64,000 bases of DNA. It comes from Escherichia phage JK1. This document shows positions 16,203 to 26,675 of this stretch, piece after piece. Both the position numbers and the translations under genes were made by a program. The notes below the pieces were generated by a model. It worked only from the letters and a program-made list of their open reading frames with translations, was not told the origin of the DNA and made no database searches. The DNA is taken from sequence record MZ436830.1; one strand, 5' to 3'. Position 1 is the stretch's first letter. Each line of letters opens with the position of its first letter.

Positions 16203-16232
16203 ACTATAACACAACACGAGGGACTTGTAAAC
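16203..16232 (-). promoter_or_regulatory. Early promoter (GTTTAC-N18-TATAGT)
   Basis: -35 GTTTAC (16227-16232) and -10 TATAGT (16203-16208) on - strand; part of a 52-bp repeat. Confidence 0.5.
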
Positions 16233-18289
16233 TACATCTTGAACTTTTTAGACATTCCGTTGATGTTAACCAAAGAAGCCAAGATTTGAGAAACTTCGTT
16301 TTCCTCTTCTTTTGATTCTTCTACAAGGAATTGATTAAATCCAGCCATTGGACGAACTTCACCAGTTTCCATTAAATGGTCGCCATCATATACTGATTCT
16401 TCTAATTGTTCAGAAGGAGGAACGATTGTACCTTCTATTAGATACTTGTTATAAGCAGTTTCTTTCATAAAGTACGTGCTCACTTTATTAATCTTCAGTA
16501 AAATTCCACGCGGTAGAATAACTTCAGCTTCTGATGGAAATCCTGATAAATGACCTGGAACGATAACTTTGATTCGCTCAGCTCCTTTAATTACCATACC
16601 CACGCTAGTTTCAGCATCTTCATTAGCATATGTAGAATGACTACCCATATGCATCAAATCTTCTGCATCAACGGAACCTTCTCCTTCACCAGAAAATACT
16701 GCGCCGGAATCATCTAGAGCCATATAGTTTTTACCATGCTCACCGAAGATATTTGGTTTAAGCGATGTGGATACGAAGTTCTTGAAATAGAACATTTTAT
16801 TTTCAATGTTATGACGCAAAGTTTTAAAGGTAACTTCTTGCCCACGATAAAGAGTAGTTCCTGGAGGAAGAACAGAACCTTTAGCAAATGCAGAATCCAA
16901 CGTCTCGATGTGTTTAATAGCTCGTTCCATATATTCTTCACGGGTAGAATCAGGTTTACCTAAAAGGAACGAGTTCATTTCAACATATGAATCTGCACAA
17001 TAATCTTCAATTACATCAGATTCAGCTTGGGTTAATCCTTTTGGAGTTACTTCGGTGCTTGCGTATTCATATGCCTGAGCAGCAGATTCATTAATCAATT
17101 TATAAATGCCATTCATTACAAATTGAATAATAGCTGTCTTTTCATCTGGCGTAGCTTTAGAACCTTTAACCAAATCATTGATAATTTTCTTAATAACATC
17201 AAAGCTATTAGAAATATTAATGTCAGCAAGATCGCTTAAAATTTTATCAGTTTTATAATCAAAGAATTCTTTATTCTTTAAATATTCTTGAGAACCTTGA
17301 TATGTTATATCGCTCTGCAACTTGATGGATGGATCACGTAAACGTGCATGGGCTAATGCAATATGATTTCGGAAACTTTCTAGTTCATAATCGTTAGATT
17401 TAAAACGAGAAGCACTCCTCATACCACCGATAGCTCCTTTGCTGAAGTTTGAACCAATCTGAATAACGCCAGAGTTCATTGGTCCTTCTGCTTTATATAC
17501 CGGAACTTTAGATTCAAACTCTTGATATTTCTTAGCAGCGAAGCTATCACCCTGAAGTGAAGCATCAACAGTAGAATATTGAGCTTGTGCTGCTAATCGA
17601 CGACTAATTTTAGTTTTCTGAATAACAGCTTGATCCGTGCGCTTATCATTTTCTAAAGCAATAGAAGCAGCGACAGCGACAGCTTTAGGAACAGCATTAC
17701 CTGTTTTAACGTCTACATAAACATCACCAACCTTTGATTCAACTTTTGTGAATAACTCAGTTGAAATAGGAGGTACACCTGGAATGTCTTCTAAATTGGC
17801 ATTTTTACGGTAAACCATAATATATGCATATTTCTTATCATAGTCCCAGATTTCCTTTAAAAGAACATATCGACCTGCTCCTTTAGTACGTACTAAACGG
17901 TCAGCAATAACTTGCATTTGACGAGCTGCGCCATTTGTTTTACTTTTTAGTACGCGGAATAGGCATGCGTCGATTTTATACTGTTTCATTGTTTGAAGAG
18001 CAGTATCAAAAACAGCATTAATGACGCCAATTGGATTTCCACCCAAGTTTCTAAGCTTGACTAACGATAATTTCTCGTTGACACCTATCATTACGATATG
18101 CATCATTTTGTCGCCTGGCTTAACGTTTTTATTCGTATCACCGCCAGAGGTGTATGTACAAAATCTAAATCCAGGAAGAACGCTTTCTTCACCGGCTTGA
18201 ATAGCAAAAATTTGTGGTATTTTATGCTTAGGATTTAAGTTAACAACCGGCGCCGAAGCGCCGTCAAATAATTCTGTAATAAGTTCCAT
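16232..18289 (-). CDS. alt: Alt-family ADP-ribosyltransferase (685 aa)
   Basis: R-S-E ART signature in C-terminal half (LYRGQ ... FVSTSL ... EAEVILPRG); N-terminal MELITE peptide; synteny next to gene 54. Confidence 0.8.
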   Translation of the reverse strand: MELITELFDGASAPVVNLNPKHKIPQIFAIQAGEESVLPGFRFCTYTSGGDTNKNVKPGDKMMHIVMIGVNEKLSLVKLRNLGGNPIGVINAVFDTALQTMKQYKIDACLFRVLKSKTNGAARQMQVIADRLVRTKGAGRYVLLKEIWDYDKKYAYIMVYRKNANLEDIPGVPPISTELFTKVESKVGDVYVDVKTGNAVPKAVAVAASIALENDKRTDQAVIQKTKISRRLAAQAQYSTVDASLQGDSFAAKKYQEFESKVPVYKAEGPMNSGVIQIGSNFSKGAIGGMRSASRFKSNDYELESFRNHIALAHARLRDPSIKLQSDITYQGSQEYLKNKEFFDYKTDKILSDLADINISNSFDVIKKIINDLVKGSKATPDEKTAIIQFVMNGIYKLINESAAQAYEYASTEVTPKGLTQAESDVIEDYCADSYVEMNSFLLGKPDSTREEYMERAIKHIETLDSAFAKGSVLPPGTTLYRGQEVTFKTLRHNIENKMFYFKNFVSTSLKPNIFGEHGKNYMALDDSGAVFSGEGEGSVDAEDLMHMGSHSTYANEDAETSVGMVIKGAERIKVIVPGHLSGFPSEAEVILPRGILLKINKVSTYFMKETAYNKYLIEGTIVPPSEQLEESVYDGDHLMETGEVRPMAGFNQFLVEESKEEENEVSQILASLVNINGMSKKFKM

Positions 18290-18292
18290 GAT

Positions 18293-20386
18293 TTATCCTT
18301 GAACGAACTTGTAAGGCATGTTTGTAATATCTATGCAAGACGCAATAATTCCAAGAGATGATTCTACTTTCTGTTTAACGTTTGATGAAACAAATGATGC
18401 AAAGTCAACTTTGTCTTCTATTTCAATATCACCTGTCATTGCAACTACTTCGCCGGTTTCCATTAGATGGTCACCGTCATAAATTACCGATTCGGTGAGT
18501 TCTTCTGTGGTCATAACTTCAGCTTGAATAAGTTTTGTATTATTAGATGTTGTTCCGTCATTATTAGAAGCATCAGTTATTTTATTAACTTTAACCATCA
18601 ATCCGCGCGGTAGAATAACTTCAGCTTCTGTTGCTATTCCTAGACTTCCTGGATATACAACATTAACTTTATGTGCGCCGTCAATTGCCCATCCTATTTG
18701 AACTTTAACGTATTCAGGATTTTCTTTATACGCTCTTATTTCGTTTGGATTAATAGTTATTCCTTCTTCATTTTTATCAACTGTTAATTCATTGCGAGCT
18801 TCTGGTTCTAAAAGACCAATACCAGCATGTGTAATTCCAAAACGTCCAAAAATGATAGGAGTTAAAGAAGTAGATACAAAATTTCTGAAGTAGAACACTT
18901 TATTTTTAACTAACGCTTCATATATAGGAGCAGTCATACTTTGAGCACGATAAACTGTAATGCCTTCTGGTATACGGTCACCATTTTCAAAAGCTGAATC
19001 TAAGTTATTTATAGCAGATTCAATTTCTTTTTCACTCATTACATCATATCGTTCTGGATTGTAACGACCTAAAAGAAGATTATTGATGTCAGTATATCCT
19101 GAACCGCAATATTCTCTAATGCCACGCTTTTGTGATGGAGTATATTTAGAACCATCGCGGGCAATAGTAATATCAATCATTGGACCAGCACCAATTCCAG
19201 AAAAACTGTAAATCATTCGTTTGAGGAATTTAGTTTTTGCTGCGTTCCAGGAATTTTTAGTTATTTCTTCCCAGACTTCATCTGGTTGTCCTTTACGATT
19301 TTTATTATGATTAGCAAGCCATTTATCTTTATAATCTTCAAAGAATTGATTTACAGCTGCTGCGTATTTCTCTAAACATTTTATTGAAGTAGTTGGTTCA
19401 TTTTTAATTGCATTAAAAATTACTTCTTTAATTTTTTCTGAAACTTCACCGACTTGACTCATTGGAAAGAATTTATAATCATAGTGAAGTTCATCTGCCG
19501 TTCCTTCAGCAATAATTTTTGCTGCCTTTGTTTTAGAAGCTAATGAATTAATTCCAATTTTCATTTCTTCTGCTTCGGGAATTAAAGGTGCAGTAGCTGG
19601 TTTATTAAAATTAGCTGCTGTAGATTCATACTTCTGGAATAATTCACTTTCAAATCTAGAAGATTCCAATGACTGACTTTGTGCAATTGCTCTACGGGAA
19701 ATTTTAACTTTAACGATTACAGCTTGGTCAGAACGTTTATCGTTTTCTTGCGCAATAGATGCTGCAATTGCCTCATTTTTAGTTACTTGGGCTCCAGTAT
19801 CTTTATTGATATAAACATCACCAACCTTCGATTCAACCTTAGTAAAGAGTTCAGTACTAATTTCTGGAACTCCTGGAATGTCTTCTAGTGATACGTTTTT
19901 ACGATGTATAAGAATATATGCATACTTTTTATCGTAATCCCAGAGTTCCTTAAGAAGGACGTATCTGCCACCTGAACGACTACGGATAAGTCTATCAGCA
20001 ATAACTTGAATTTGTCGAGCTTGACCAGCGGTTTTAGACTTAAGAATACGAAGCATACAAGCATCAATTTTATATTGACGCATTGTTTGCATTGCAACAG
20101 TAAAAACTGAATTGATATAATTAATTGGGCTTGGACCAAGACCTTTCAATTTAGCAATTGAACCTTTAGCAGTTAATGTAAAAGGAACAATATGCATCAT
20201 TTTGTCGCCCATTTTTAAATCACGATTAGTATCACCTCCAGATGTATAGGTACATAAACGAAAGCCTGGTTGTTCAATTGCATCATCAACATGAACTGAA
20301 AAAATTTGTGGTATTTTCTTCTTTGGATTTAAGTTTGTAATCGGAAGAGTAGTATCTTCGTCAAATAATTCTGTAATGAGTTCCAT
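18293..20386 (-). CDS. Second Alt-family ADP-ribosyltransferase paralog (697 aa)
   Basis: Paralog of adjacent ORF: same N-terminal ~230 aa and same ART triad (VYRAQ ... FVSTSL ... EAEVILPRG); late promoter at 20410-20417. Confidence 0.8.
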   Translation of the reverse strand: MELITELFDEDTTLPITNLNPKKKIPQIFSVHVDDAIEQPGFRLCTYTSGGDTNRDLKMGDKMMHIVPFTLTAKGSIAKLKGLGPSPINYINSVFTVAMQTMRQYKIDACMLRILKSKTAGQARQIQVIADRLIRSRSGGRYVLLKELWDYDKKYAYILIHRKNVSLEDIPGVPEISTELFTKVESKVGDVYINKDTGAQVTKNEAIAASIAQENDKRSDQAVIVKVKISRRAIAQSQSLESSRFESELFQKYESTAANFNKPATAPLIPEAEEMKIGINSLASKTKAAKIIAEGTADELHYDYKFFPMSQVGEVSEKIKEVIFNAIKNEPTTSIKCLEKYAAAVNQFFEDYKDKWLANHNKNRKGQPDEVWEEITKNSWNAAKTKFLKRMIYSFSGIGAGPMIDITIARDGSKYTPSQKRGIREYCGSGYTDINNLLLGRYNPERYDVMSEKEIESAINNLDSAFENGDRIPEGITVYRAQSMTAPIYEALVKNKVFYFRNFVSTSLTPIIFGRFGITHAGIGLLEPEARNELTVDKNEEGITINPNEIRAYKENPEYVKVQIGWAIDGAHKVNVVYPGSLGIATEAEVILPRGLMVKVNKITDASNNDGTTSNNTKLIQAEVMTTEELTESVIYDGDHLMETGEVVAMTGDIEIEDKVDFASFVSSNVKQKVESSLGIIASCIDITNMPYKFVQG

Positions 20387-20409
20387 CATATCCTCTCTAG
20401 TGTTTATTC

Positions 20410-20417
20410 TATTTATA
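20410..20417 (-). promoter_or_regulatory. Late promoter for the upstream Alt-family gene
   Basis: TATAAATA on - strand ~20 nt upstream of ATG 20386/20389. Confidence 0.6.
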
Positions 20418-20418
20418 A

Positions 20419-20440
20419 AATTAAAGGCCCGAAGGCCTTT
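20419..20440 (-). terminator. Hairpin (possible terminator) upstream of the alt late promoter
   Basis: AAAGGCCUUCGGGCCUUU on - strand followed by AAUUUUAU. Confidence 0.4.
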
Positions 20441-20627
20441 AATAATCTATTGGTAAGAGAGTACGATATATTTCAAACTTTGGACCTTTTTCATAGGCAT
20501 CAAATGTTTCTGTGAATTTATTATAAGCATATGCATCTATAAATTCAATCATGATTTGTGATACAGAAGTAGAAACATCTCCACCTTCTTTTTGAGCCAC
20601 GACAATTGTTTCTAAGTAAGCTTTCAT
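20439..20627 (-). CDS. Hypothetical protein (62 aa)
   Basis: ORF downstream of DNA ligase gene. Confidence 0.5.
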   Translation of the reverse strand: MKAYLETIVVAQKEGGDVSTSVSQIMIEFIDAYAYNKFTETFDAYEKGPKFEIYRTLLPIDY

Positions 20628-22087
20628 AGACCAGTTACCTCATGAAAATCACCAAATACATCTTCGAATGTATTAGCTTTAGTTTTATCTTCACGCAAAC
20701 GAATCGCAATTGGAAGAAATAATTTAACGTAATCAGTGCGGCCATCGGATTTTAACCAACCGTTGCATTCGCACTCTAGAATTTTTCCAATATAATAATT
20801 TTGGTTTTCCATAATGCGAGTACGGTCAAGTTCATGTGATTTTACGCCGGCTTTATCTTTTAAGCCTGAACCGGCATTTACCTTAATTTTTCCACACTCT
20901 GACTCAAGAATAAATCCACCTGCTTTAGTAGGGTCTTTACGGTGAGGATAAATTCCTACAATTTTTAAATCAACATCAATTACTTCTTTAAATTTATAGA
21001 GATTTTTTGAACGAGCATTTTCCCATAATCCATCGATATTTTTGAGAATAATACCTTCAAGACCTTGATCAATATACTTTTTGTAAATTACCTTAGCTTC
21101 ATCTAGGTTATTTACTACTTGGTTTTCAATTAAAATTACTTTATCATAGCCTGATGTCATTTGTTCTAGTTTAGAAAAACGTACATCATACTTTAAACGA
21201 AATGCAGGAAGACCATATATTTCTACTAATGGAACATAATCCCAGACCTGAAACTTCATGCATTGTGCTTCTTTTTCGGAAATGGTTCCCTTTAAAGATT
21301 TATTAGCGATTCCATTAGAAGTAGTACGTGATTCAGCTACTTCGGCGAATTCTTTAGCTTTACTAATTTCAGGATAAGCATCAAAAAGAAAATCTAGGCC
21401 TTCTGGCTCCTTTTTAACTTGCTCATGGTATACCAATTCGCCATCAATTAACACACCTTCTGGATGAATCTGGCGGGCTTCAGCGGTCATTTTGATTAAC
21501 TCTTCCTTAAGAAGATCTAATCCTAGATATTCATTACCAGCTCGTGATAAAAGACGGACATCATCTAATTCATCACCTCTAACTTCAGCAAAACACCGAG
21601 CTCCATCTGCTTTTAATTGTGCAAAGGCTGGAAATTTGATATTCTTACTAATGCCTTTTTCATCATAAGAACTTGCGAGCATTTGAGGTTGTTCAGGAAT
21701 TAAACCTGGCCAAACTTTGTTTGCAATAGATACTGAAGCACCACATTCAAGGTCTCGCATCATCACTCGACGCAAAACTTCAACATCATCTTTTTTACCA
21801 TCGGTGATATATCCAGTTAATTCCTCAATTGCCGCATTTCCAGTCAATTTCCGAGTAGCTAACGTGAATTCAATGAAGTCAAGCATATCGGTAAGAGTCA
21901 ACATTCCAAAACTCTGGGTAGCAATACCAGGTTTAGGCCATTTCTTGATATAATACTGTAACCCACGAGAATAAGTCAGACGATATACTCGTTTAAGCAA
22001 TTCATTATCTTTATTCTTTTCAAGAATTGCTTGCTTCTGCTTAGTTGAACCAATAGATGCTATTTCGTTCAGAATTTTAAGAATCAT
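20624..22087 (-). CDS. 30: ATP-dependent DNA ligase gp30
   Basis: 487 aa; adenylation motif KADGAR; matches remembered T4 DNA ligase over full length. Confidence 0.95.
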   Translation of the reverse strand: MILKILNEIASIGSTKQKQAILEKNKDNELLKRVYRLTYSRGLQYYIKKWPKPGIATQSFGMLTLTDMLDFIEFTLATRKLTGNAAIEELTGYITDGKKDDVEVLRRVMMRDLECGASVSIANKVWPGLIPEQPQMLASSYDEKGISKNIKFPAFAQLKADGARCFAEVRGDELDDVRLLSRAGNEYLGLDLLKEELIKMTAEARQIHPEGVLIDGELVYHEQVKKEPEGLDFLFDAYPEISKAKEFAEVAESRTTSNGIANKSLKGTISEKEAQCMKFQVWDYVPLVEIYGLPAFRLKYDVRFSKLEQMTSGYDKVILIENQVVNNLDEAKVIYKKYIDQGLEGIILKNIDGLWENARSKNLYKFKEVIDVDLKIVGIYPHRKDPTKAGGFILESECGKIKVNAGSGLKDKAGVKSHELDRTRIMENQNYYIGKILECECNGWLKSDGRTDYVKLFLPIAIRLREDKTKANTFEDVFGDFHEVTGL

Positions 22088-22353
22088 TGTTCATCCTTTA
22101 GAGTTTGGTTTACAGCTCTATTATAAATCAATTCATCATTAAGCTCAGTCAAAGACCTGTGGTACGTTGTTCTAACTTTATTTCCTTGCATCCAGTGCTT
22201 GACGTAAATGAAACCTTGCTCTACACATTTTTTAAAAATTCGTTCGTCTTTTTGAGCTCGGAATTCTGGATTGCATCTAAAAAATTGATTTACGTGACCG
22301 TAATCACGTGTAGTATTACCTTCATTTTCATAAATAGTGTGAACGACAAACAT
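22084..22353 (-). CDS. Hypothetical protein (89 aa)
   Basis: ORF overlapping ligase start by 4 nt. Confidence 0.6.
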   Translation of the reverse strand: MFVVHTIYENEGNTTRDYGHVNQFFRCNPEFRAQKDERIFKKCVEQGFIYVKHWMQGNKVRTTYHRSLTELNDELIYNRAVNQTLKDEQ

Positions 22354-23192
22354 TAGAATGCTCCTTGGAAAATATTATCACCACTAGTAGGTCTATTATA
22401 CAAATACTCTATGCCACCAGGTTTAATATAGTTCCATGTCTGAAACGGATGTGTCTGATATGGATGATATAGATGATTATAAGGATTAAATCCAGGAGTT
22501 CTCCAGGTAGTGTTCCAAGGAAAAGAATCGTTTTTGATCATCTTCTCAATTACATCTTTTATAAATTTTTCACTATCAAAACTTTCTTTATTTTCCTTCG
22601 ATGGAAAAAGCTTATTCTCTACATCATTCCATGTATAAACTCGCTGTGCAGTTTTTGGAATACTGTCACGCTCTCCTCGAGCCATCCAATAAACTGGAAC
22701 ATTTAATATTTCACTCGCATGATCGCAGTGGTGAGCGAGATCGTCAATATAACAAATTACGTTATATTTCTCTTTTGCCTTTTTGAACAACTCTTCTTTT
22801 GAAGAATCATGGCCACACATCAATACTTCTGAGAAGGCACCAGGAAAAAGAGCATTCAAATTAAATTGACGATTCAGCAGAGCGTCAATAGAATCACCCA
22901 ATGCTGTAACAGCTACAAAATTATAATCTTCTTTTAATTTGTTAATTACACACAGAGCATCTTTATATGGAGACAAGTAACGAATAAAATCTGAACGATT
23001 ATATTTTTCAATTAACTTGACACCAAGTTCTTCATCGCAATTAAAGAGCTTACCAGGAGAAATAAATTTTTCGTCCTGAATCATTTTTAAAATATGTTCT
23101 AATGGAAGATTATATTTTTGGGCAAAATAAGGAAGACCTGATTGCCAGCTTAAACATACACCATCAATATCAGTCAAAATAGTAGGCTTCAT
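22353..23192 (-). CDS. HAD-like hydrolase/phosphatase candidate (279 aa)
   Basis: N-terminal ILTDIDGV resembles HAD motif I DxDG(T/V); otherwise unassigned. Confidence 0.55.
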   Translation of the reverse strand: MKPTILTDIDGVCLSWQSGLPYFAQKYNLPLEHILKMIQDEKFISPGKLFNCDEELGVKLIEKYNRSDFIRYLSPYKDALCVINKLKEDYNFVAVTALGDSIDALLNRQFNLNALFPGAFSEVLMCGHDSSKEELFKKAKEKYNVICYIDDLAHHCDHASEILNVPVYWMARGERDSIPKTAQRVYTWNDVENKLFPSKENKESFDSEKFIKDVIEKMIKNDSFPWNTTWRTPGFNPYNHLYHPYQTHPFQTWNYIKPGGIEYLYNRPTSGDNIFQGAF

Positions 23193-23653
23193 AGAGAGTC
23201 TCTTAGTAGGTTTAACACATCAATAAATTCAGCTTCGGTTAGTATTGTATCATCTTTTGTTAGACCACTAGCCATGCTGTGCTTCAAAACTTTTCCTTTC
23301 GAGGCTTGTAATGCATCACGAAAGCCCTTGTTTTGGATCGCTGCTTCAAAATATGCATTTGTGTATAATTCTTTCCACGCCGGGGAGTATCTTGAAAACG
23401 GAACTCCGAGCCAGAAGAGGGTCCCACGGTCCTGAGCTCTTGCATAAGACCTTCCAGCTTGCTGTGCGGCAAGCCCGGATAACCCAAATATACGACGTTG
23501 TTGTTCAACATTTTTCACCTTGCACCCTTGGAGGAATCCTTCAAGACCTCCAAATTGAATACCATCCATAACGAAAGGCCATTTGGCGAAATTACTTAAT
23601 GCACATGATGGCCACCTAAAATTGCTTCTAATCTCTAACTCAGACATTTTCAA
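23189..23653 (-). CDS. NADAR/YbiA (DUF1768)-like protein (154 aa)
   Basis: Segment LSNFAKWPFVMDGIQFGGLEGFLQGCK resembles YbiA-family core (FSNF..WP..DG....EH.FQA.K). Confidence 0.6.
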   Translation of the reverse strand: MKMSELEIRSNFRWPSCALSNFAKWPFVMDGIQFGGLEGFLQGCKVKNVEQQRRIFGLSGLAAQQAGRSYARAQDRGTLFWLGVPFSRYSPAWKELYTNAYFEAAIQNKGFRDALQASKGKVLKHSMASGLTKDDTILTEAEFIDVLNLLRDSL

Positions 23654-23846
23654 TGCTTATAATTTCAACATCAGCCCAATGACCATAGCAAGGAAGACGA
23701 AATTCAACTGGCCAGTTAGGGTCCTTTTCTAATATAATAGACTTAACTTGTGGTTCTTCATGTTCATCAGTATATGGATTTTTATCTGTTACTTTATATG
23801 TGACCTTAATGTACTGAATTCCAAAAATCTTATTAATTATATTCAT
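23640..23846 (-). CDS. Hypothetical protein (68 aa)
   Basis: ORF in operon-like array. Confidence 0.55.
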   Translation of the reverse strand: MNIINKIFGIQYIKVTYKVTDKNPYTDEHEEPQVKSIILEKDPNWPVEFRLPCYGHWADVEIISIENV

Positions 23847-24040
23847 ACTAGTTCCTTTAATCCGTAAATAGGAGATAATTCATCACCCATACGAAGGTCT
23901 TCATTTCCATCTACCCAGGAAACAATATAAGCCTCTTTTATTTGAACACCACTCCATTTAAATGGAGGTAGAACCTTAGAAATTAATCCAGGTATACCAA
24001 CTCCCTTTAATTCAACAGTTTGACCTAAAAAGAATTTCAT
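23843..24040 (-). CDS. Hypothetical protein (65 aa)
   Basis: ORF in operon-like array. Confidence 0.55.
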   Translation of the reverse strand: MKFFLGQTVELKGVGIPGLISKVLPPFKWSGVQIKEAYIVSWVDGNEDLRMGDELSPIYGLKELV

Positions 24041-24327
24041 TAGAACCTCATCTGAAAACCGTGCGATTTAACATTACCGCCGCCAATATCAGAAATGTTA
24101 ATTTCACGCGCAATTGAAGGGTCAATGTCAATTTCGCGATTGAGTTTAGTGATAGCTAAAGTATCACGCCCATTTACAGTACGGAATTCTAAAGGACAAA
24201 CCACATCAACGTAATTTTTAATCGATTCACTGGTAGGTTGCAAATGAGCAGGAAGGTCTTTGGGCGCCTTTGAGAAAACCACTTCACAGAAATTTTTACG
24301 GGTATCAAAATAAGTAGTCATAAACAT
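24040..24327 (-). CDS. Hypothetical protein (95 aa)
   Basis: ORF with GAGGAAAA RBS. Confidence 0.6.
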   Translation of the reverse strand: MFMTTYFDTRKNFCEVVFSKAPKDLPAHLQPTSESIKNYVDVVCPLEFRTVNGRDTLAITKLNREIDIDPSIAREINISDIGGGNVKSHGFQMRF

Positions 24328-24368
24328 GGTATTTTCCTCAGTAAGGGGCCGAAGCCCCTCATTTTATT

Positions 24369-24734
24369 TTAAATATCAAATTCATTAAGAACTACATCAA
24401 AGATTGCTTCGAGATGTTCAGGTTTAGCTCTGTTACTCAGAATATGACGAATCCAAGTTTTAACCAAAAGCTTGCGATTAGCACCATTCCAACAAGGATG
24501 AGTCCCTAAATCGCGTTGACGGAAATCATCATCCAGAGCGATTTTAAAGTTGGAACCTTCCATTGTGATTGAAACCGTGATGCCATTTTCAAATCGCATA
24601 TAAACGTAATTAGGAGTCATATACTGTTCAATTTCGCATACTGATCCATTTTGATGTTTCCAAAGGCAGATAGTATCAATAGAACCTGCAATACCATTAG
24701 AAACATATTTACGTTCAAAGTTGATGTAGTTCAT
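24369..24734 (-). CDS. Hypothetical protein (121 aa)
   Basis: Start moved to ATG 24734 with GGAG RBS (ORF-track start is TTG). Confidence 0.6.
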   Translation of the reverse strand: MNYINFERKYVSNGIAGSIDTICLWKHQNGSVCEIEQYMTPNYVYMRFENGITVSITMEGSNFKIALDDDFRQRDLGTHPCWNGANRKLLVKTWIRHILSNRAKPEHLEAIFDVVLNEFDI

Positions 24735-24770
24735 TTTATTCTCCAAGATGTTTAATTGCGGTACAGGTAT

Positions 24771-24799
24771 ATAATATCATATCCTGTACCAAAGTAAAC
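24771..24799 (-). promoter_or_regulatory. Early promoter (GTTTAC-N17-TATTAT) inside inverted repeat
   Basis: -35 at 24794-24799, -10 at 24771-24776; flanked by GGTACAGG/CCTGTACC inverted repeat. Confidence 0.45.
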
Positions 24800-24803
24800 T
24801 ATT

Positions 24804-25172
24804 TTATGCAACTTTAATCCAATTATCTAAATTTAATTCACCTTTGGCTTTCATTTTTTCAATCAAGAGGTCAGCGGTAATACGACCATTTTGATACCAC
24901 GTAACATCTTCAGAGTAACCAGTTTCTTTATCTTCATAAGTCTCACAACGAATTTTACCAATAATCAAAGTTTTCAATTCGTATGTATCTCCAGTAAAAA
25001 AGTTAGTTAACATTATTTTCCAAGAGAAATCATCAGAAGGACCTTCAGGAGTCATGCAACCTACAAATTCAAATTGTTCTTTGTATAAGTGCCACTGAAG
25101 TTCTTTAGTTTCGATAGCTTTATAGCCGTCGTGATCTTTACCTTTGATGTATGAGTTAAGATTGATTTTCAT
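24804..25172 (-). CDS. Hypothetical protein (122 aa)
   Basis: ORF with early-type promoter upstream. Confidence 0.6.
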   Translation of the reverse strand: MKINLNSYIKGKDHDGYKAIETKELQWHLYKEQFEFVGCMTPEGPSDDFSWKIMLTNFFTGDTYELKTLIIGKIRCETYEDKETGYSEDVTWYQNGRITADLLIEKMKAKGELNLDNWIKVA

Positions 25173-25199
25173 TTTATTCTCCTTTGTTTGTGTAAGATA

Positions 25200-25229
25200 A
25201 TACTATCACAAAGGAACTATACTGTAAAC
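25200..25229 (-). promoter_or_regulatory. Early promoter candidate
   Basis: GTTTAC at 25224-25229, TAGTAT-like -10 18 nt away; ~30 nt upstream of ATG 25172. Confidence 0.4.
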
Positions 25230-25282
25230 AACTTTATGCAATCTTTGGAAAATAAAAAAGGACTCCCGAAGGAGTCCTCAAC

Positions 25283-25501
25283 TTATGCTTTCTGCTTACC
25301 AAAACGAGAAGCATCATCTCGAAGAACCGCACGTGCTCGACGCATGATCTTCTCAACAGTTTGATTAATACGAGAGTTCGACCCACGCTTGTAGCCAGCG
25401 CGTTTAGAATCACCAACTTTCTTTTCAACTGCTTTCTTTGCTTTAGCTTGTTTTGCCATTATAAATTCTCTTTTAAATGAAAATGCAGGACTTATTGGCA
25501 T
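25283..25501 (-). CDS. Small highly basic protein (58-72 aa, start uncertain)
   Basis: Lys/Arg-rich ORF; alternative start MAKQAKAKK at 25459. Confidence 0.45.
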   Translation of the reverse strand: MPISPAFSFKREFIMAKQAKAKKAVEKKVGDSKRAGYKRGSNSRINQTVEKIMRRARAVLRDDASRFGKQKA

Positions 25502-25578
25502 TGCCTGCGCAAGCCCTCAAGGGGTACTTAGGTTTTGAATATTTACCGACAGGATAACCATAAACCTCGTCAACATAA

Positions 25579-25827
25579 TTACTTCAGTGTTACCACAAAG
25601 TGACGAACTGCTTTTCGTGCAGCAGAAGCCAAAGGCTTAGCATATTTAAGCTCATCTTTTTCCTGGAGCTCAGCGGCTAATGCAGTTTGAGCAGGATTCA
25701 GATGTTTGAAATAACGCAGGATTTCAAGAGCTTCGGCTTCAACATCAATAGATGCGCCATAGTTTTCGTGACCATTATTCCATGCGTTTCGTTGCAGTTC
25801 AAGAGCGTGTTGTAATTGTTTAATCAT
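25579..25827 (-). CDS. rIII: rIII lysis inhibition accessory protein
   Basis: 82 aa; position immediately downstream of gene 31. Confidence 0.75.
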   Translation of the reverse strand: MIKQLQHALELQRNAWNNGHENYGASIDVEAEALEILRYFKHLNPAQTALAAELQEKDELKYAKPLASAARKAVRHFVVTLK

Positions 25828-25974
25828 TTAAAAATTCTCGTTAGAGATTAAAACTCGGTAGTCACGTTCTTCTGAATTTCATCTTCTTTCGACAGATCTC
25901 TCAGTTGTAGACTACCACATAGAATTGTTCGGTTAACTTATTATTCCGACACCCAATTCATATTATTATTTATA

Positions 25975-26310
25975 TCACTTATAAAGACACGGAATAGCTT
26001 TATAGTGACAAGTAACGAATTTTTGTTTAATTTCTTTTGGCTGCTTAAGACCCAGAGCTACAAAAGGATGCGGAACATTTCGAATTTGACCAACTGGAAG
26101 AGAAGTCAAATCACCAACTTCGCAGAAACCTTCAGGAACATCAGGACCAACAGAGTGAACTACACACAGTTCAGGAACTTCACCTTGAACACGTTTACCG
26201 ATAATAAGTCCTGATTCTGTAACTTCTTCATCACCAGCCTGTGCAGGTTCAGAAACTAAAATAACATATTCACCGACAGCACGAATTGGTAGCTGTTGTA
26301 CTTCAGACAT
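25975..26310 (-). CDS. 31: Co-chaperonin gp31 (GroES analogue)
   Basis: 111 aa; AGGAAA RBS; MotA-box middle promoter upstream; synteny. Confidence 0.85.
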
Positions 26311-26340
26311 CGTTTTTCCTTTTTGTTAACAGATGAATTA

Positions 26341-26365
26341 ATAATAACAAATAATTCTTAAAGCA
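26341..26365 (-). promoter_or_regulatory. MotA-dependent middle promoter of gene 31
   Basis: - strand AAATGCTTTA (MotA box) -12 nt- TATTAT upstream of gene 31 ATG. Confidence 0.55.
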
Positions 26366-26366
26366 T

Positions 26367-26675
26367 TTATTTACCAATAAATTGGAGTAAATGCTCAACT
26401 TTCATACCATTAACGGAAATCAATTTGTCAATAGAAAAACCTCGCCATGCACCAAGTTCAACATCAAATACTGGAATCATGTCAGTAGATTCTTTCCGAG
26501 TAGATTCAGTCAATTTACCAGTTTGCATGGTTGGCATAAAGTCTGCATCACGAGTACCTTTCATAGTACGAATAGTACCATCAGACTTTTCAAAAACTAC
26601 GTTTGAAACACCCATGGACAATTTAGTTTTCAAAATTTCACGAATTGCTACTTTCTGCTCAGTTGTCAGTTTCAT
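26367..26675 (-). CDS. Hypothetical protein (102 aa)
   Basis: ORF. Confidence 0.6.
   Translation of the reverse strand: MKLTTEQKVAIREILKTKLSMGVSNVVFEKSDGTIRTMKGTRDADFMPTMQTGKLTESTRKESTDMIPVFDVELGAWRGFSIDKLISVNGMKVEHLLQFIGK

What the first reader, a model, noticed from the sequence alone, without database searches (positions are those of the whole stretch)
22353..23653. NADAR/YbiA-like ORF next to a HAD-like hydrolase ORF in the early 30.x array
Seen: the 154-aa ORF (23189-23653) contains LSNFAKWPFVMDGIQFGGLEGFLQGCK, which resembles the core of YbiA/NADAR (DUF1768) proteins. The adjacent 279-aa ORF starts with ILTDIDGV, a HAD-type DxDG motif. Established: NADAR domains act on ADP-ribose conjugates and have been reported to reverse guanine ADP-ribosylation of DNA by DarT-type toxins. 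Inference: the pair may be a counter-defence or nucleotide-damage-reversal module. The motif match is by eye only.
Basis: partly seen in the sequence, partly recalled or inferred. Interest (0 to 1): 0.5.

Follow-up and report, generated by a model that had tools for sequence, protein, structure and literature searches.

The report
Known anti-DarT NADAR gene plus phosphatase
The two reading frames are phage T4 genes 30.3 and 30.2: the first is AdfN, an already published enzyme that strips ADP-ribose off phage DNA to defeat the bacterial DarTG1 defence. The second is an uncharacterised phosphatase that published knockout data show is not needed for that job.

Summary
The window is a T4-like phage (Tequatrovirus). 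The 154-aa ORF is gene 30.3. Its real start is the ATG at 23647, giving 152 aa, and 150 of 152 residues match T4 gp30.3. That protein is AdfN, shown in 2024-2025 to be a NADAR DNA ADP-ribosylglycohydrolase that is necessary and sufficient against DarTG1. My checks agree:
- Pfam Phage_30_3 matches at E 5.6e-70.
- A confident model has the three solved NADAR structures as its best fold matches.
- E36, K43 and H123 are present and the C-terminal helix is intact.

The 279-aa ORF is gene 30.2. Residues 1-195 form a HAD phosphatase fold with all four motifs conserved (D8/D10, T96, K132, D150-D151). Remote relatives point to the NT5C 5'(3')-deoxyribonucleotidase family. The C-terminal 84 residues are mostly low-confidence in the model.

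The "pair is a module" idea fails two tests:
- A published T4 transposon screen on DarTG1 shows 30.3 at log2FC -7.25 and 30.2 at -0.12 (p 0.61).
- The NADAR gene lies next to 30.2 in only 5 of 11 sampled lineages, whereas 30.2 stays beside DNA ligase in 10 of 11.

Verdict: observation confirmed, interpretation half right, NADAR part already known. Low interest.

The parts
23189..23647 (-). Gene 30.3 = adfN (152 aa), a NADAR-fold DNA ADP-ribosylglycohydrolase.
   Evidence: PF08010 at E 5.6e-70. 150/152 residues identical to T4 gp30.3. AF2 model pLDDT 92.9; the top three Foldseek PDB hits are YbiA 2b3w, PnNADAR 8bau and G. lovleyi NADAR 8bat. Function of the T4 orthologue was shown experimentally.
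23519..23599 (-). It contains the catalytic E36 (23540-23542) and K43 (23519-23521).
   Evidence: Translation checked. The family profile aligns this stretch to YbiA FSNFAAWPIKVDGKTWPTSEHYFQAQKF. E36A and K43A abolish AdfN function in T4.
23279..23281 (-). H123 codon. This is the His that replaces the Glu (YbiA family) or Asp (BC4488/DarG1 family) near the catalytic centre and marks the phage gp30.3-type NADARs.
   Evidence: Invariant in 36 family members. Described as the phage-NADAR signature.
22353..23192 (-). Gene 30.2 (279 aa). Its ATG overlaps the adfN stop (ATGA).
   Evidence: ORF, junction. phrog_420 at E 2.8e-92, unknown function. About 97% identical to T4 gp30.2.
22608..23192 (-). 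gp30.2 residues 1-195: a HAD-superfamily phosphatase domain with a helical cap between motifs I and II. Motif I DIDGV is at 23157-23171, motif II T96 at 22905-22907, motif III K132 at 22797-22799 and motif IV D150-D151 at 22740-22745.
22356..22607 (-). gp30.2 residues 196-279: a variable C-terminal tail, absent from many homologues. It carries a conserved near-terminal motif GIEYLYNRPT (22386-22415).
   Evidence: The tail has a predicted helix at 207-220 (block pLDDT 84) but falls to about 40-50 from 224 onward. It is missing or different in about 200-aa homologues. The motif [GSN]xEY[LWYF]..[QRK]P[TS] occurs 6-10 residues from the C-terminus in 16 of 57 long homologue clusters.
23640..23846 (-). 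Gene 30.4 (68 aa), immediately upstream of adfN and overlapping its start by 8 nt. It is context only and probably provides translational coupling for adfN.
   Evidence: ORF. adfN has a weak ribosome-binding site. 30.4 was the only other significant gene in the DarTG1 screen (log2FC -1.79, adjusted p 0.014).
20624..22353 (-). Genes 30.1 (22084-22353, DUF3045) and 30 (DNA ligase, 20624-22087). These are the neighbours that stay with 30.2 across T4-like phages.
   Evidence: Pfam DUF3045 at E 2.9e-64. Ligase lies within 0-2 genes of the 30.2 homologue in 10 of 11 sampled loci.

Best explanation
These are two independent early genes of a T4-like phage that happen to be neighbours.

Gene 30.3 is adfN. 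Its product is a small free-standing NADAR enzyme that hydrolyses the N-glycosidic bond between ADP-ribose and guanine in phage DNA. This undoes the modification made by the host DarT1 toxin and lets replication proceed in DarTG1-carrying bacteria. That function was shown for the T4 protein. It is inferred here from 98.7% identity, intact E36/K43/H123 and a full-length C-terminal helix.

Gene 30.2 encodes a Mg-dependent HAD-type phosphomonoesterase of the NT5C (5'(3')-deoxyribonucleotidase)-like branch, with a capped active site. The fold, catalytic motifs and family link are shown here. The capped active site favours a small substrate, most likely a (deoxy)nucleoside monophosphate or a related phospho-sugar, but the substrate is inferred. 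It is followed by a poorly conserved tail with a short conserved C-terminal motif.

gp30.2 is dispensable for growth on E. coli K-12 in LB and M9 and for DarTG1 resistance, so its role is conditional and separate from AdfN's. Its constant neighbour is DNA ligase, not the NADAR.
For: AdfN identity:
- Pfam PF08010 matches at E 5.6e-70.
- 150/152 residues are identical to T4 gp30.3, with E36, K43 and H123 intact.
- The model has pLDDT 92.9, and the only three Foldseek hits with probability of at least 0.98 are NADAR structures.
- The family profile hits YbiA at E 0.0034.

AdfN function, from the literature:
- adfN is necessary and sufficient against DarTG1.
- E36A and K43A are inactive.
- The purified protein removes ADP-ribose from DNA.
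- Transposon insertions in 30.3 are lost on DarTG1.

gp30.2 as a HAD phosphatase:
- The four motifs are invariant or nearly invariant.
- The DxD first motif is typical of phosphatases (established knowledge).
- The Foldseek top hit is cdN 2jao at E 2e-8, and the profile's best PDB hit is also 2jao at E 0.02.
- 18 of 36 remote relatives hit Pfam NT5C, best 4.2e-10.

Independence of the two genes:
- 30.2 has log2FC -0.12 on DarTG1 and -0.10 in M9 versus LB, and 72/72 TA sites are hit on K-12.
- The NADAR gene is 58 kb from 30.2 in Karamvirus. It is absent within +/-3-5 kb of 30.2 in five further lineages, all but one of which keep DNA ligase beside 30.2.
Against: - The two genes share an ATGA stop/start overlap, and the adjacency is kept as far away as an Acinetobacter Lazarusvirus (46% and 49% identity). 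Some selective linkage therefore cannot be excluded.
- AdfN works fully only in T-even infections, and its discoverers propose an unidentified helper.
- A transposon screen cannot exclude a redundant or condition-dependent contribution of 30.2.
- gp30.2 itself gets no Pfam hit.
- No biochemical data on gp30.2 were found, so the substrate assignment is weak.
Confidence: 0.82

Rival explanations
1. One reading: 30.3 and 30.2 form a two-enzyme counter-defence or damage-reversal module. gp30.2 would either process the ADP-ribose released by AdfN (for example by dephosphorylating a breakdown product) or be the T-even-specific helper that AdfN needs.
For: - The genes have a translationally coupled ATGA junction.
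- The adjacency is conserved in Tequatro-, Dhaka-, Gapriver- and Lazarusvirus.
- Both genes occur in about 1,450-1,500 Straboviridae records with near-identical host breakdowns.
- AdfN shows full activity only in T-even infections, and an unknown helper has been proposed.
Against: - 30.2 insertions at 71 sites show no depletion on DarTG1 (log2FC -0.12, p 0.61), while 30.3 shows -7.25.
- AdfN alone deribosylates DNA in vitro and, expressed alone, fully rescues RB69.
- The NADAR gene is not near 30.2 in 6 of 11 sampled lineages.
- A jumbo-phage NADAR has no HAD neighbour.
- Every junction in the 30.x array is equally tight.
- Genome-level co-occurrence is expected for any two widespread Straboviridae genes.
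Confidence: 0.06
2. gp30.2 is a DNA-end phosphatase that works with the adjacent DNA ligase. It would remove 3'-phosphates so that nicks can be sealed, as PNKP-type HAD phosphatases do. The conserved C-terminal motif would dock it onto a replication or repair protein.
For: - DNA ligase lies within 0-2 genes of 30.2 in 10 of 11 loci, including one where the gene order is inverted.
- There is a weak PHROG hit to polynucleotide kinase (E 0.004).
- A conserved C-terminal short motif sits in a low-confidence tail.
Against: - gp30.2 has a roughly 70-residue helical cap between motifs I and II. PNKP-type DNA phosphatases lack one (established knowledge of HAD cap classes), and a cap usually restricts access to small substrates.
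- Sequence links go to NT5C, not to HAD_PNKP.
- T4 already encodes PseT, a 3'-phosphatase.
- Synteny with ligase may simply be inherited gene order.
Confidence: 0.08
3. AdfN's main natural substrate is not DarT1-modified DNA. It would instead be soluble ADP-ribose derivatives or immune signals, or damaged riboflavin intermediates as for YbiA, with DarTG1 reversal a side activity.
For: - Iyer, Burroughs and Aravind argued from distribution that phage NADARs mainly target low-molecular-weight ADP-ribose derivatives.
- YbiA is a riboflavin-intermediate N-glycosidase.
- The NADAR gene is near-universal in Straboviridae (1,510 records).
Against: - Deletion of adfN gives a 4-log sensitisation to DarTG1, and transposon insertions in 30.3 are lost on DarTG1.
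- There is direct in-vitro DNA deribosylation, and it is specific for guanine-linked rather than thymine-linked ADP-ribose.
- adfN insertions show no fitness effect without DarTG1.
Confidence: 0.04

Closest known systems
AdfN (T4 gp30.3), anti-DarT factor NADAR (Johannesman, Carlson & LeRoux, Nat Commun 2025; in-vitro activity in Toxins 2024, 16:208)
   Same: It is the same gene: 150/152 residues identical, the same length, the same position between 30.4 and 30.2, catalytic E36 and K43 and the phage-type H123 present, and the C-terminal helix intact, unlike the inactive RB69 allele.
   Different: Only K22Q and M124I relative to T4. Activity of this allele was not itself tested.
DarG1 / BC4488-family NADAR antitoxins and E. 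coli YbiA (PDB 8bat, 8bau, 2b3w)
   Same: They share the NADAR fold (Foldseek TM 0.68 to 2b3w) and the Glu/Lys catalytic pair. They carry out the same chemistry, removal of ADP-ribose from guanine N2.
   Different: There is no N-terminal DNA-binding extension. His replaces Asp/Glu at the third active-site position. The gene is not paired with a DarT toxin gene. It falls in Pfam PF08010, not PF08719, with only 15-18% identity.
NT5C family 5'(3')-deoxyribonucleotidases (cdN/mdN, PDB 2jao, 2i7d, 1q92; Pfam PF06941) within the HAD superfamily
   Same: gp30.2 shares the DxDGV first motif, a Thr, a Lys and a hDD fourth motif, and a helical cap inserted after motif I. It has an aromatic residue (W16) where cdN has the Phe of DGVLADF. 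These structures are the best Foldseek and best profile-to-PDB matches, and remote relatives hit PF06941.
   Different: Identity is only about 17%, and gp30.2 itself falls below every Pfam threshold. It has an extra 84-residue C-terminal tail with a conserved terminal motif. The substrate is unknown, and no phenotype was seen in published screens.
AdfM (T4 Tk.4 macrodomain, anti-DarTG2) and AdfA (gp61.2, anti-DarT1 binder)
   Same: They are the other T4 counter-measures against DarT toxins, and each is a single-gene factor.
   Different: They have different folds and mechanisms and lie elsewhere in the genome. AdfN does not act on thymine-linked ADP-ribose.

Membership tests
gp30.3/AdfN clade of the NADAR superfamily | Sequence membership in Pfam PF08010 (Phage_30_3) | tested here: met
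   E 5.6e-70, 234 bits against a cut-off of 36, covering the full-length model.
gp30.3/AdfN clade of the NADAR superfamily | Direct match to the general NADAR model PF08719 | tested here: not met
   There is no hit at E<=1 for this protein. The link is indirect: 4 of 36 family members hit PF08719 (best 1.5e-7), and the family profile hits YbiA at E 0.0034.
gp30.3/AdfN clade of the NADAR superfamily | NADAR (YbiA-like) alpha+beta fold | tested here: met
   The model has pLDDT 92.9. The top three Foldseek PDB hits are 2b3w (E 1.6e-4, TM 0.68), 8bau and 8bat; the next hits have probability below 0.1.
gp30.3/AdfN clade of the NADAR superfamily | Catalytic Glu and Lys (E36, K43), plus His in the last strand instead of Glu/Asp | tested here: met
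   E36, K43 and H123 are present. E36 and H123 are invariant and K43 is at least 90% conserved in 36 homologues.
gp30.3/AdfN clade of the NADAR superfamily | Full-length C-terminal helix (the RB69 frameshift allele lacking 15 residues is inactive) | tested here: met
   The protein is 152 aa with helix 138-151 modelled.
gp30.3/AdfN clade of the NADAR superfamily | Removal of guanine-linked ADP-ribose from DNA, and protection from DarTG1 | not testable with these tools
   This was shown for the T4 protein, which differs at 2 of 152 residues.
HAD superfamily phosphatases | Four catalytic motifs: I DxDx[TV], II S/T, III K/R, IV DD or equivalent | tested here: met
   D8-I-D10-G-V, T96, K132 and D150-D151. 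These are invariant or at least 90% conserved in 33 homologues, and D, D, K and D are also kept in 36 remote relatives.
HAD superfamily phosphatases | Rossmann-like HAD core fold | tested here: met
HAD superfamily phosphatases | Match to a curated HAD model at its threshold | tested here: not met
   There is no Pfam or NCBIfam hit for this protein. Relatives give sub-threshold hits to PF00702 (9 of 33) and HAD_2 (5 of 33).
HAD superfamily phosphatases | Mg-dependent phosphoryl transfer through an aspartyl-phosphate intermediate | not testable with these tools
   No biochemical report on gp30.2 was found.
NT5C 5'(3')-deoxyribonucleotidase family (PF06941) | Sequence membership | tested here: inconclusive
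   The protein itself gives no hit. 5 of 33 close relatives (best 1.2e-4) and 18 of 36 remote relatives (best 4.2e-10) hit PF06941. The profile hits cdN 2jao at E 0.02.
NT5C 5'(3')-deoxyribonucleotidase family (PF06941) | Closest structures are deoxyribonucleotidases with the same cap | tested here: inconclusive
NT5C 5'(3')-deoxyribonucleotidase family (PF06941) | dNMP phosphatase activity | not testable with these tools
   An enzyme assay is needed.
   The genes are adjacent in 5 of 11 sampled loci. The NADAR gene is 58 kb away in Karamvirus and absent within +/-3-5 kb in five others.
   In the published HIDEN-SEQ table read here, on DarTG1, 30.3 has log2FC -7.25 (adjusted p 0) and 30.2 has -0.12 (p 0.61).

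The most novel reading that the evidence does not exclude
gp30.2 is not a bystander. On this reading it is a ligase-linked, NT5C-like nucleotidase whose conserved C-terminal GIEYLxxQPT peptide docks it onto a phage replication or repair protein. It would matter only under conditions not yet screened: for example as a counter to a nucleotide-based defence, or as a redundant part of the unidentified T-even factor that AdfN needs for full activity.
Probability: 0.12. Interest if true: 0.45.

Novelty: already known. Interest (0 to 1): 0.15.

Why it matters
But the biology was published in 2024-2025: AdfN reverses DarT1 ADP-ribosylation of phage DNA. What remains open is small but concrete.
- gp30.2 is a widespread phosphatase, found in about 1,440 phage genomes, with no known substrate or phenotype. 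It is always kept beside DNA ligase.
- The helper that AdfN needs in T-even infections is still unidentified. The data read here argue that it is not gp30.2.

Tried and rejected
- Direct Pfam, NCBIfam and PADLOC scans gave nothing for NADAR or HAD on either protein. Single-sequence PDB searches were also not significant. Family profiles and structure models were needed.
- The promoter and terminator scan of 20300-26500 found no more sites than shuffled sequence and none inside the pair.
- I looked for an NAD-salvage link through the NARP3 paper. It is irrelevant: that system uses NadR and PnuC, not a HAD enzyme.
- I searched for Rosetta-stone fusions among remote gp30.2 relatives of 258-660 aa. 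No informative partner domains appeared.
- I tested whether the small gene 30.4 travels with the NADAR gene in distant phages. It does not. It is confined to the T-even-type genera.
- I tested whether the annotated overlapping ORF 30.3' is under selection. Its open +1 frame of 76 codons is reached by 9.7% of synonymous shuffles, and it is not in register in distant homologues.
- The afdb50 fold library was unavailable.
- A full-text search found no paper containing the term gp30.2.

Full report
**What the window is.** A 2.4-kb stretch around the finding is 97-98% identical to hundreds of Tequatrovirus (T4-like) genomes. The minus-strand gene order matches T4: a second Alt-like ORF (16232-18289), alt, alt.1, 30 (DNA ligase), 30.1, 30.2, 30.3, 30.4 and onward.

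**Observation check.** Both ORFs are present at the stated coordinates. The quoted peptide is encoded at 23519-23599, and ILTDIDGV is residues 5-12 of the 279-aa ORF. The only correction concerns the first gene. It starts at the ATG at 23647 (152 aa, MSELEIR...), as in the T4 annotation and in the primers used to clone adfN, not at the TTG at 23653.

**Gene 30.3 is a NADAR.**
- The protein matches Pfam PF08010 (Phage_30_3) at E 5.6e-70 but does not reach the general NADAR model PF08719.
- I collected 104 homologues and aligned 36 of them (A2).
- Four of the 36 members hit PF08719 themselves, best E 1.5e-7.
- An AlphaFold2 model built on A2 is confident (pLDDT 92.9).
- Its three best Foldseek matches in the PDB are YbiA, the Phytophthora NADAR bound to ADP-ribose, and the Geobacter lovleyi DarT1-associated NADAR. 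Everything below those has probability under 0.1.
- E36 and H123 are invariant and K43 nearly invariant in A2.

**This is already known.**
- De Souza and Aravind grouped phage gp30.3 proteins in the NADAR superfamily as the branch with His in place of the Glu/Asp near the catalytic centre (as summarised).
- Schuller et al. (Mol Cell 2023) showed that NADARs remove ADP-ribose from guanine.
- A 2024 Toxins paper tested T4 gp30.3 in vitro.
- Johannesman, Carlson and LeRoux (bioRxiv 2024; Nat Commun 2025) named it AdfN. They showed that it is necessary and sufficient for T-even resistance to DarTG1, that E36A and K43A are inactive, that the purified protein deribosylates DNA, and that the RB69 allele lacking the last 15 residues is non-functional.
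- The protein in this window differs from T4 AdfN at two positions (K22Q, M124I). It is full length and keeps E36, K43 and H123.

**Gene 30.2 is a HAD phosphatase.**
- The protein itself has no Pfam or NCBIfam hit. It belongs to phrog_420, of unknown function.
- Homologues are confined to T4-like phages. The conserved part is the first ~195 residues; the tail varies or is absent.
- In 33 aligned homologues D8, D10, G11 and K132 are invariant, and T96, D150 and D151 nearly so. These are HAD motifs I to IV.
- The DxD form of motif I is characteristic of phosphotransferases rather than dehalogenases (established knowledge).
- The model has pLDDT above 90 through residue ~190 (block mean 82 for 191-200), with a helical cap between motifs I and II. 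The tail keeps one predicted helix (207-220) but drops to about 40-50 from residue 224 onward.

**Which HAD branch.**
- The evidence points to the NT5C 5'(3')-deoxyribonucleotidases, though not decisively.
- Foldseek ranks cdN, mdN and a staphylococcal homologue first, at E about 2e-8.
- The best profile-to-PDB hit is cdN 2jao at E 0.02.
- In that alignment the invariant W16 sits opposite the Phe of cdN's DGVLADF. I recall that Phe as a base-stacking residue; this is from memory and was not tested.
- An exhaustive profile search found 1,530 cluster representatives.
- Of 36 remote ones, 18 hit Pfam NT5C (best 4.2e-10), against 10 for the generic Hydrolase model.
- No paper in the library mentions gp30.2.

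**Are the two genes a module? Published genetics.**
- The HIDEN-SEQ preprint screened a saturated T4 transposon library on E. coli with and without DarTG1. I read its supplementary resampling table:

| Gene | Sites | log2FC on DarTG1 | Significance |
|---|---|---|---|
| 30.3 | 28 | -7.25 | adjusted p 0 |
| 30.2 | 71 | -0.12 | p 0.61 |
| 30.4 | 21 | -1.79 | adjusted p 0.014 |

- 30.3 and 30.4 are the only two significant genes in that comparison.
- 30.2 is also non-essential on K-12, with 72 of 72 sites hit, and neutral in M9 versus LB, log2FC -0.10.
- The transposon has no terminator, so insertions in 30.2, which lies downstream of adfN, report on 30.2 alone.

**Are the two genes a module? Synteny.**
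- I fetched the 30.2 neighbourhood in nine further genomes or contigs plus T4. I searched them with profiles of both families.
- A 30.3-family gene lies directly upstream of 30.2 in the window, T4, a Dhakavirus, a Gaprivervirus and an Acinetobacter Lazarusvirus.
- In a Karamvirus it is 58 kb away, among the tRNA genes.
- It is not within 3-5 kb of 30.2 in a Ceceduovirus, a Tegunavirus, a Schizotequatrovirus or two metagenomic T4-like contigs.
- DNA ligase, by contrast, is within two genes of 30.2 in 10 of the 11 loci, even where the order is inverted (L009).
- A jumbo-phage NADAR of the same family has no HAD neighbour.
- The ATGA overlap between 30.3 and 30.2 is not special. 30.2/30.1 overlap as TAATG, and 30.4/30.3 overlap by 8 nt.
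- The two genes occur in similar numbers of phage records (1,439 and 1,510) with matching host breakdowns. That is what one expects of any two widespread Straboviridae genes.

**Conclusion on mechanism.**
- AdfN acts alone as an orphan, antitoxin-like glycohydrolase that cleans DarT1-made ADP-ribosyl-guanine from phage DNA.
- gp30.2 is a separate capped HAD phosphomonoesterase, most likely acting on a nucleotide-sized substrate. Its role shows no phenotype in the conditions screened so far.
- Its steady association with DNA ligase and its conserved C-terminal peptide (GIEYLxxQPT, in 16 of 57 long homologue clusters) are leads, not explanations.

**One open thread.** The Nat Commun version reports that an unmodified-DNA T4 strain is still DarTG1-resistant. 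[quoted passage not shown] The screen data argue against 30.2 being that factor. The partial depletion of 30.4 could mean a helper. More simply, it could mean loss of translational coupling, because adfN has a poor ribosome-binding site and its ATG lies inside the end of 30.4. 30.4 is restricted to the T-even-type genera: 720 records, against 728 with AdfN at 80% identity or more. It does not accompany the NADAR gene elsewhere.

**Verdict.** The NADAR and HAD assignments are correct. The counter-defence role of the NADAR is correct but already published, and the module idea is not supported. Interest is low.

Noticed in passing
window 23640-23846 (-), gene 30.4: In the published T4 transposon screen on DarTG1, 30.4 is the only significant gene besides adfN (log2FC -1.79, adjusted p 0.014). 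It overlaps the adfN start by 8 nt, and adfN has a weak ribosome-binding site, so polarity through lost translational coupling is the simple reading. However, AdfN's discoverers postulate an unidentified T-even helper. 30.4 is found in 720 phage records, close to the 728 that carry a T-even-type AdfN.
   Followed up: partly
window 22386-22415 (-), gp30.2 residues 260-269: A short motif, G-I-E-Y-L-x-x-[QR]-P-T, sits 6-10 residues from the C-terminus of an otherwise variable, largely low-confidence tail. It is present in 16 of 57 long homologue clusters. It looks like a docking peptide. From memory it loosely resembles the hydrophobic C-terminal clamp-binding tails of T4 gp43 and gp55; this was not tested.
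   Followed up: partly
window 20624-23192 and loci L001, L003-L007, L009-L011: The 30.2 homologue stays within 0-2 genes of the ATP-dependent DNA ligase in 10 of 11 sampled T4-like lineages, including one contig where the order is inverted (ligase upstream of 30.2).
   Followed up: partly
L008 (Vibrio phage TCU-VP03-AIR1, PP712906.1 51952-58401): In this Schizotequatrovirus the 30.2-like HAD gene (37% identity over 153 aligned residues, query residues 1-151) is not near ligase. It lies between a nicotinamide phosphoribosyltransferase gene and two radical-SAM genes.
   Followed up: no
window 23284-23511 (-): This is the ORF annotated in T4 as 30.3', a 75-codon frame inside adfN in the +1 frame. 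Its open stretch (76 codons) is reached by 9.7% of synonymous-codon shuffles of adfN. The open stretches in distant homologues lie at different positions. There is no sign that it is a selected gene.
   Followed up: yes
window 16232-18289 (-) and 18293-20389 (-): There are two tandem Alt-type ADP-ribosyltransferase genes, of 685 and 698 aa and 41% identity, where the T4 annotation in the HIDEN-SEQ supplementary gene table lists one alt followed by three small genes. The recent T4 screen links Alt to evasion of Mokosh type I.
   Followed up: partly
L002 (Klebsiella phage KaAlpha, MN013084.1 69892-78329): In Karamvirus the gp30.3-family NADAR gene lies in the middle of the tRNA gene cluster, 58 kb from 30.2. 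The NADAR gene has therefore moved within T4-like genomes.
   Followed up: no
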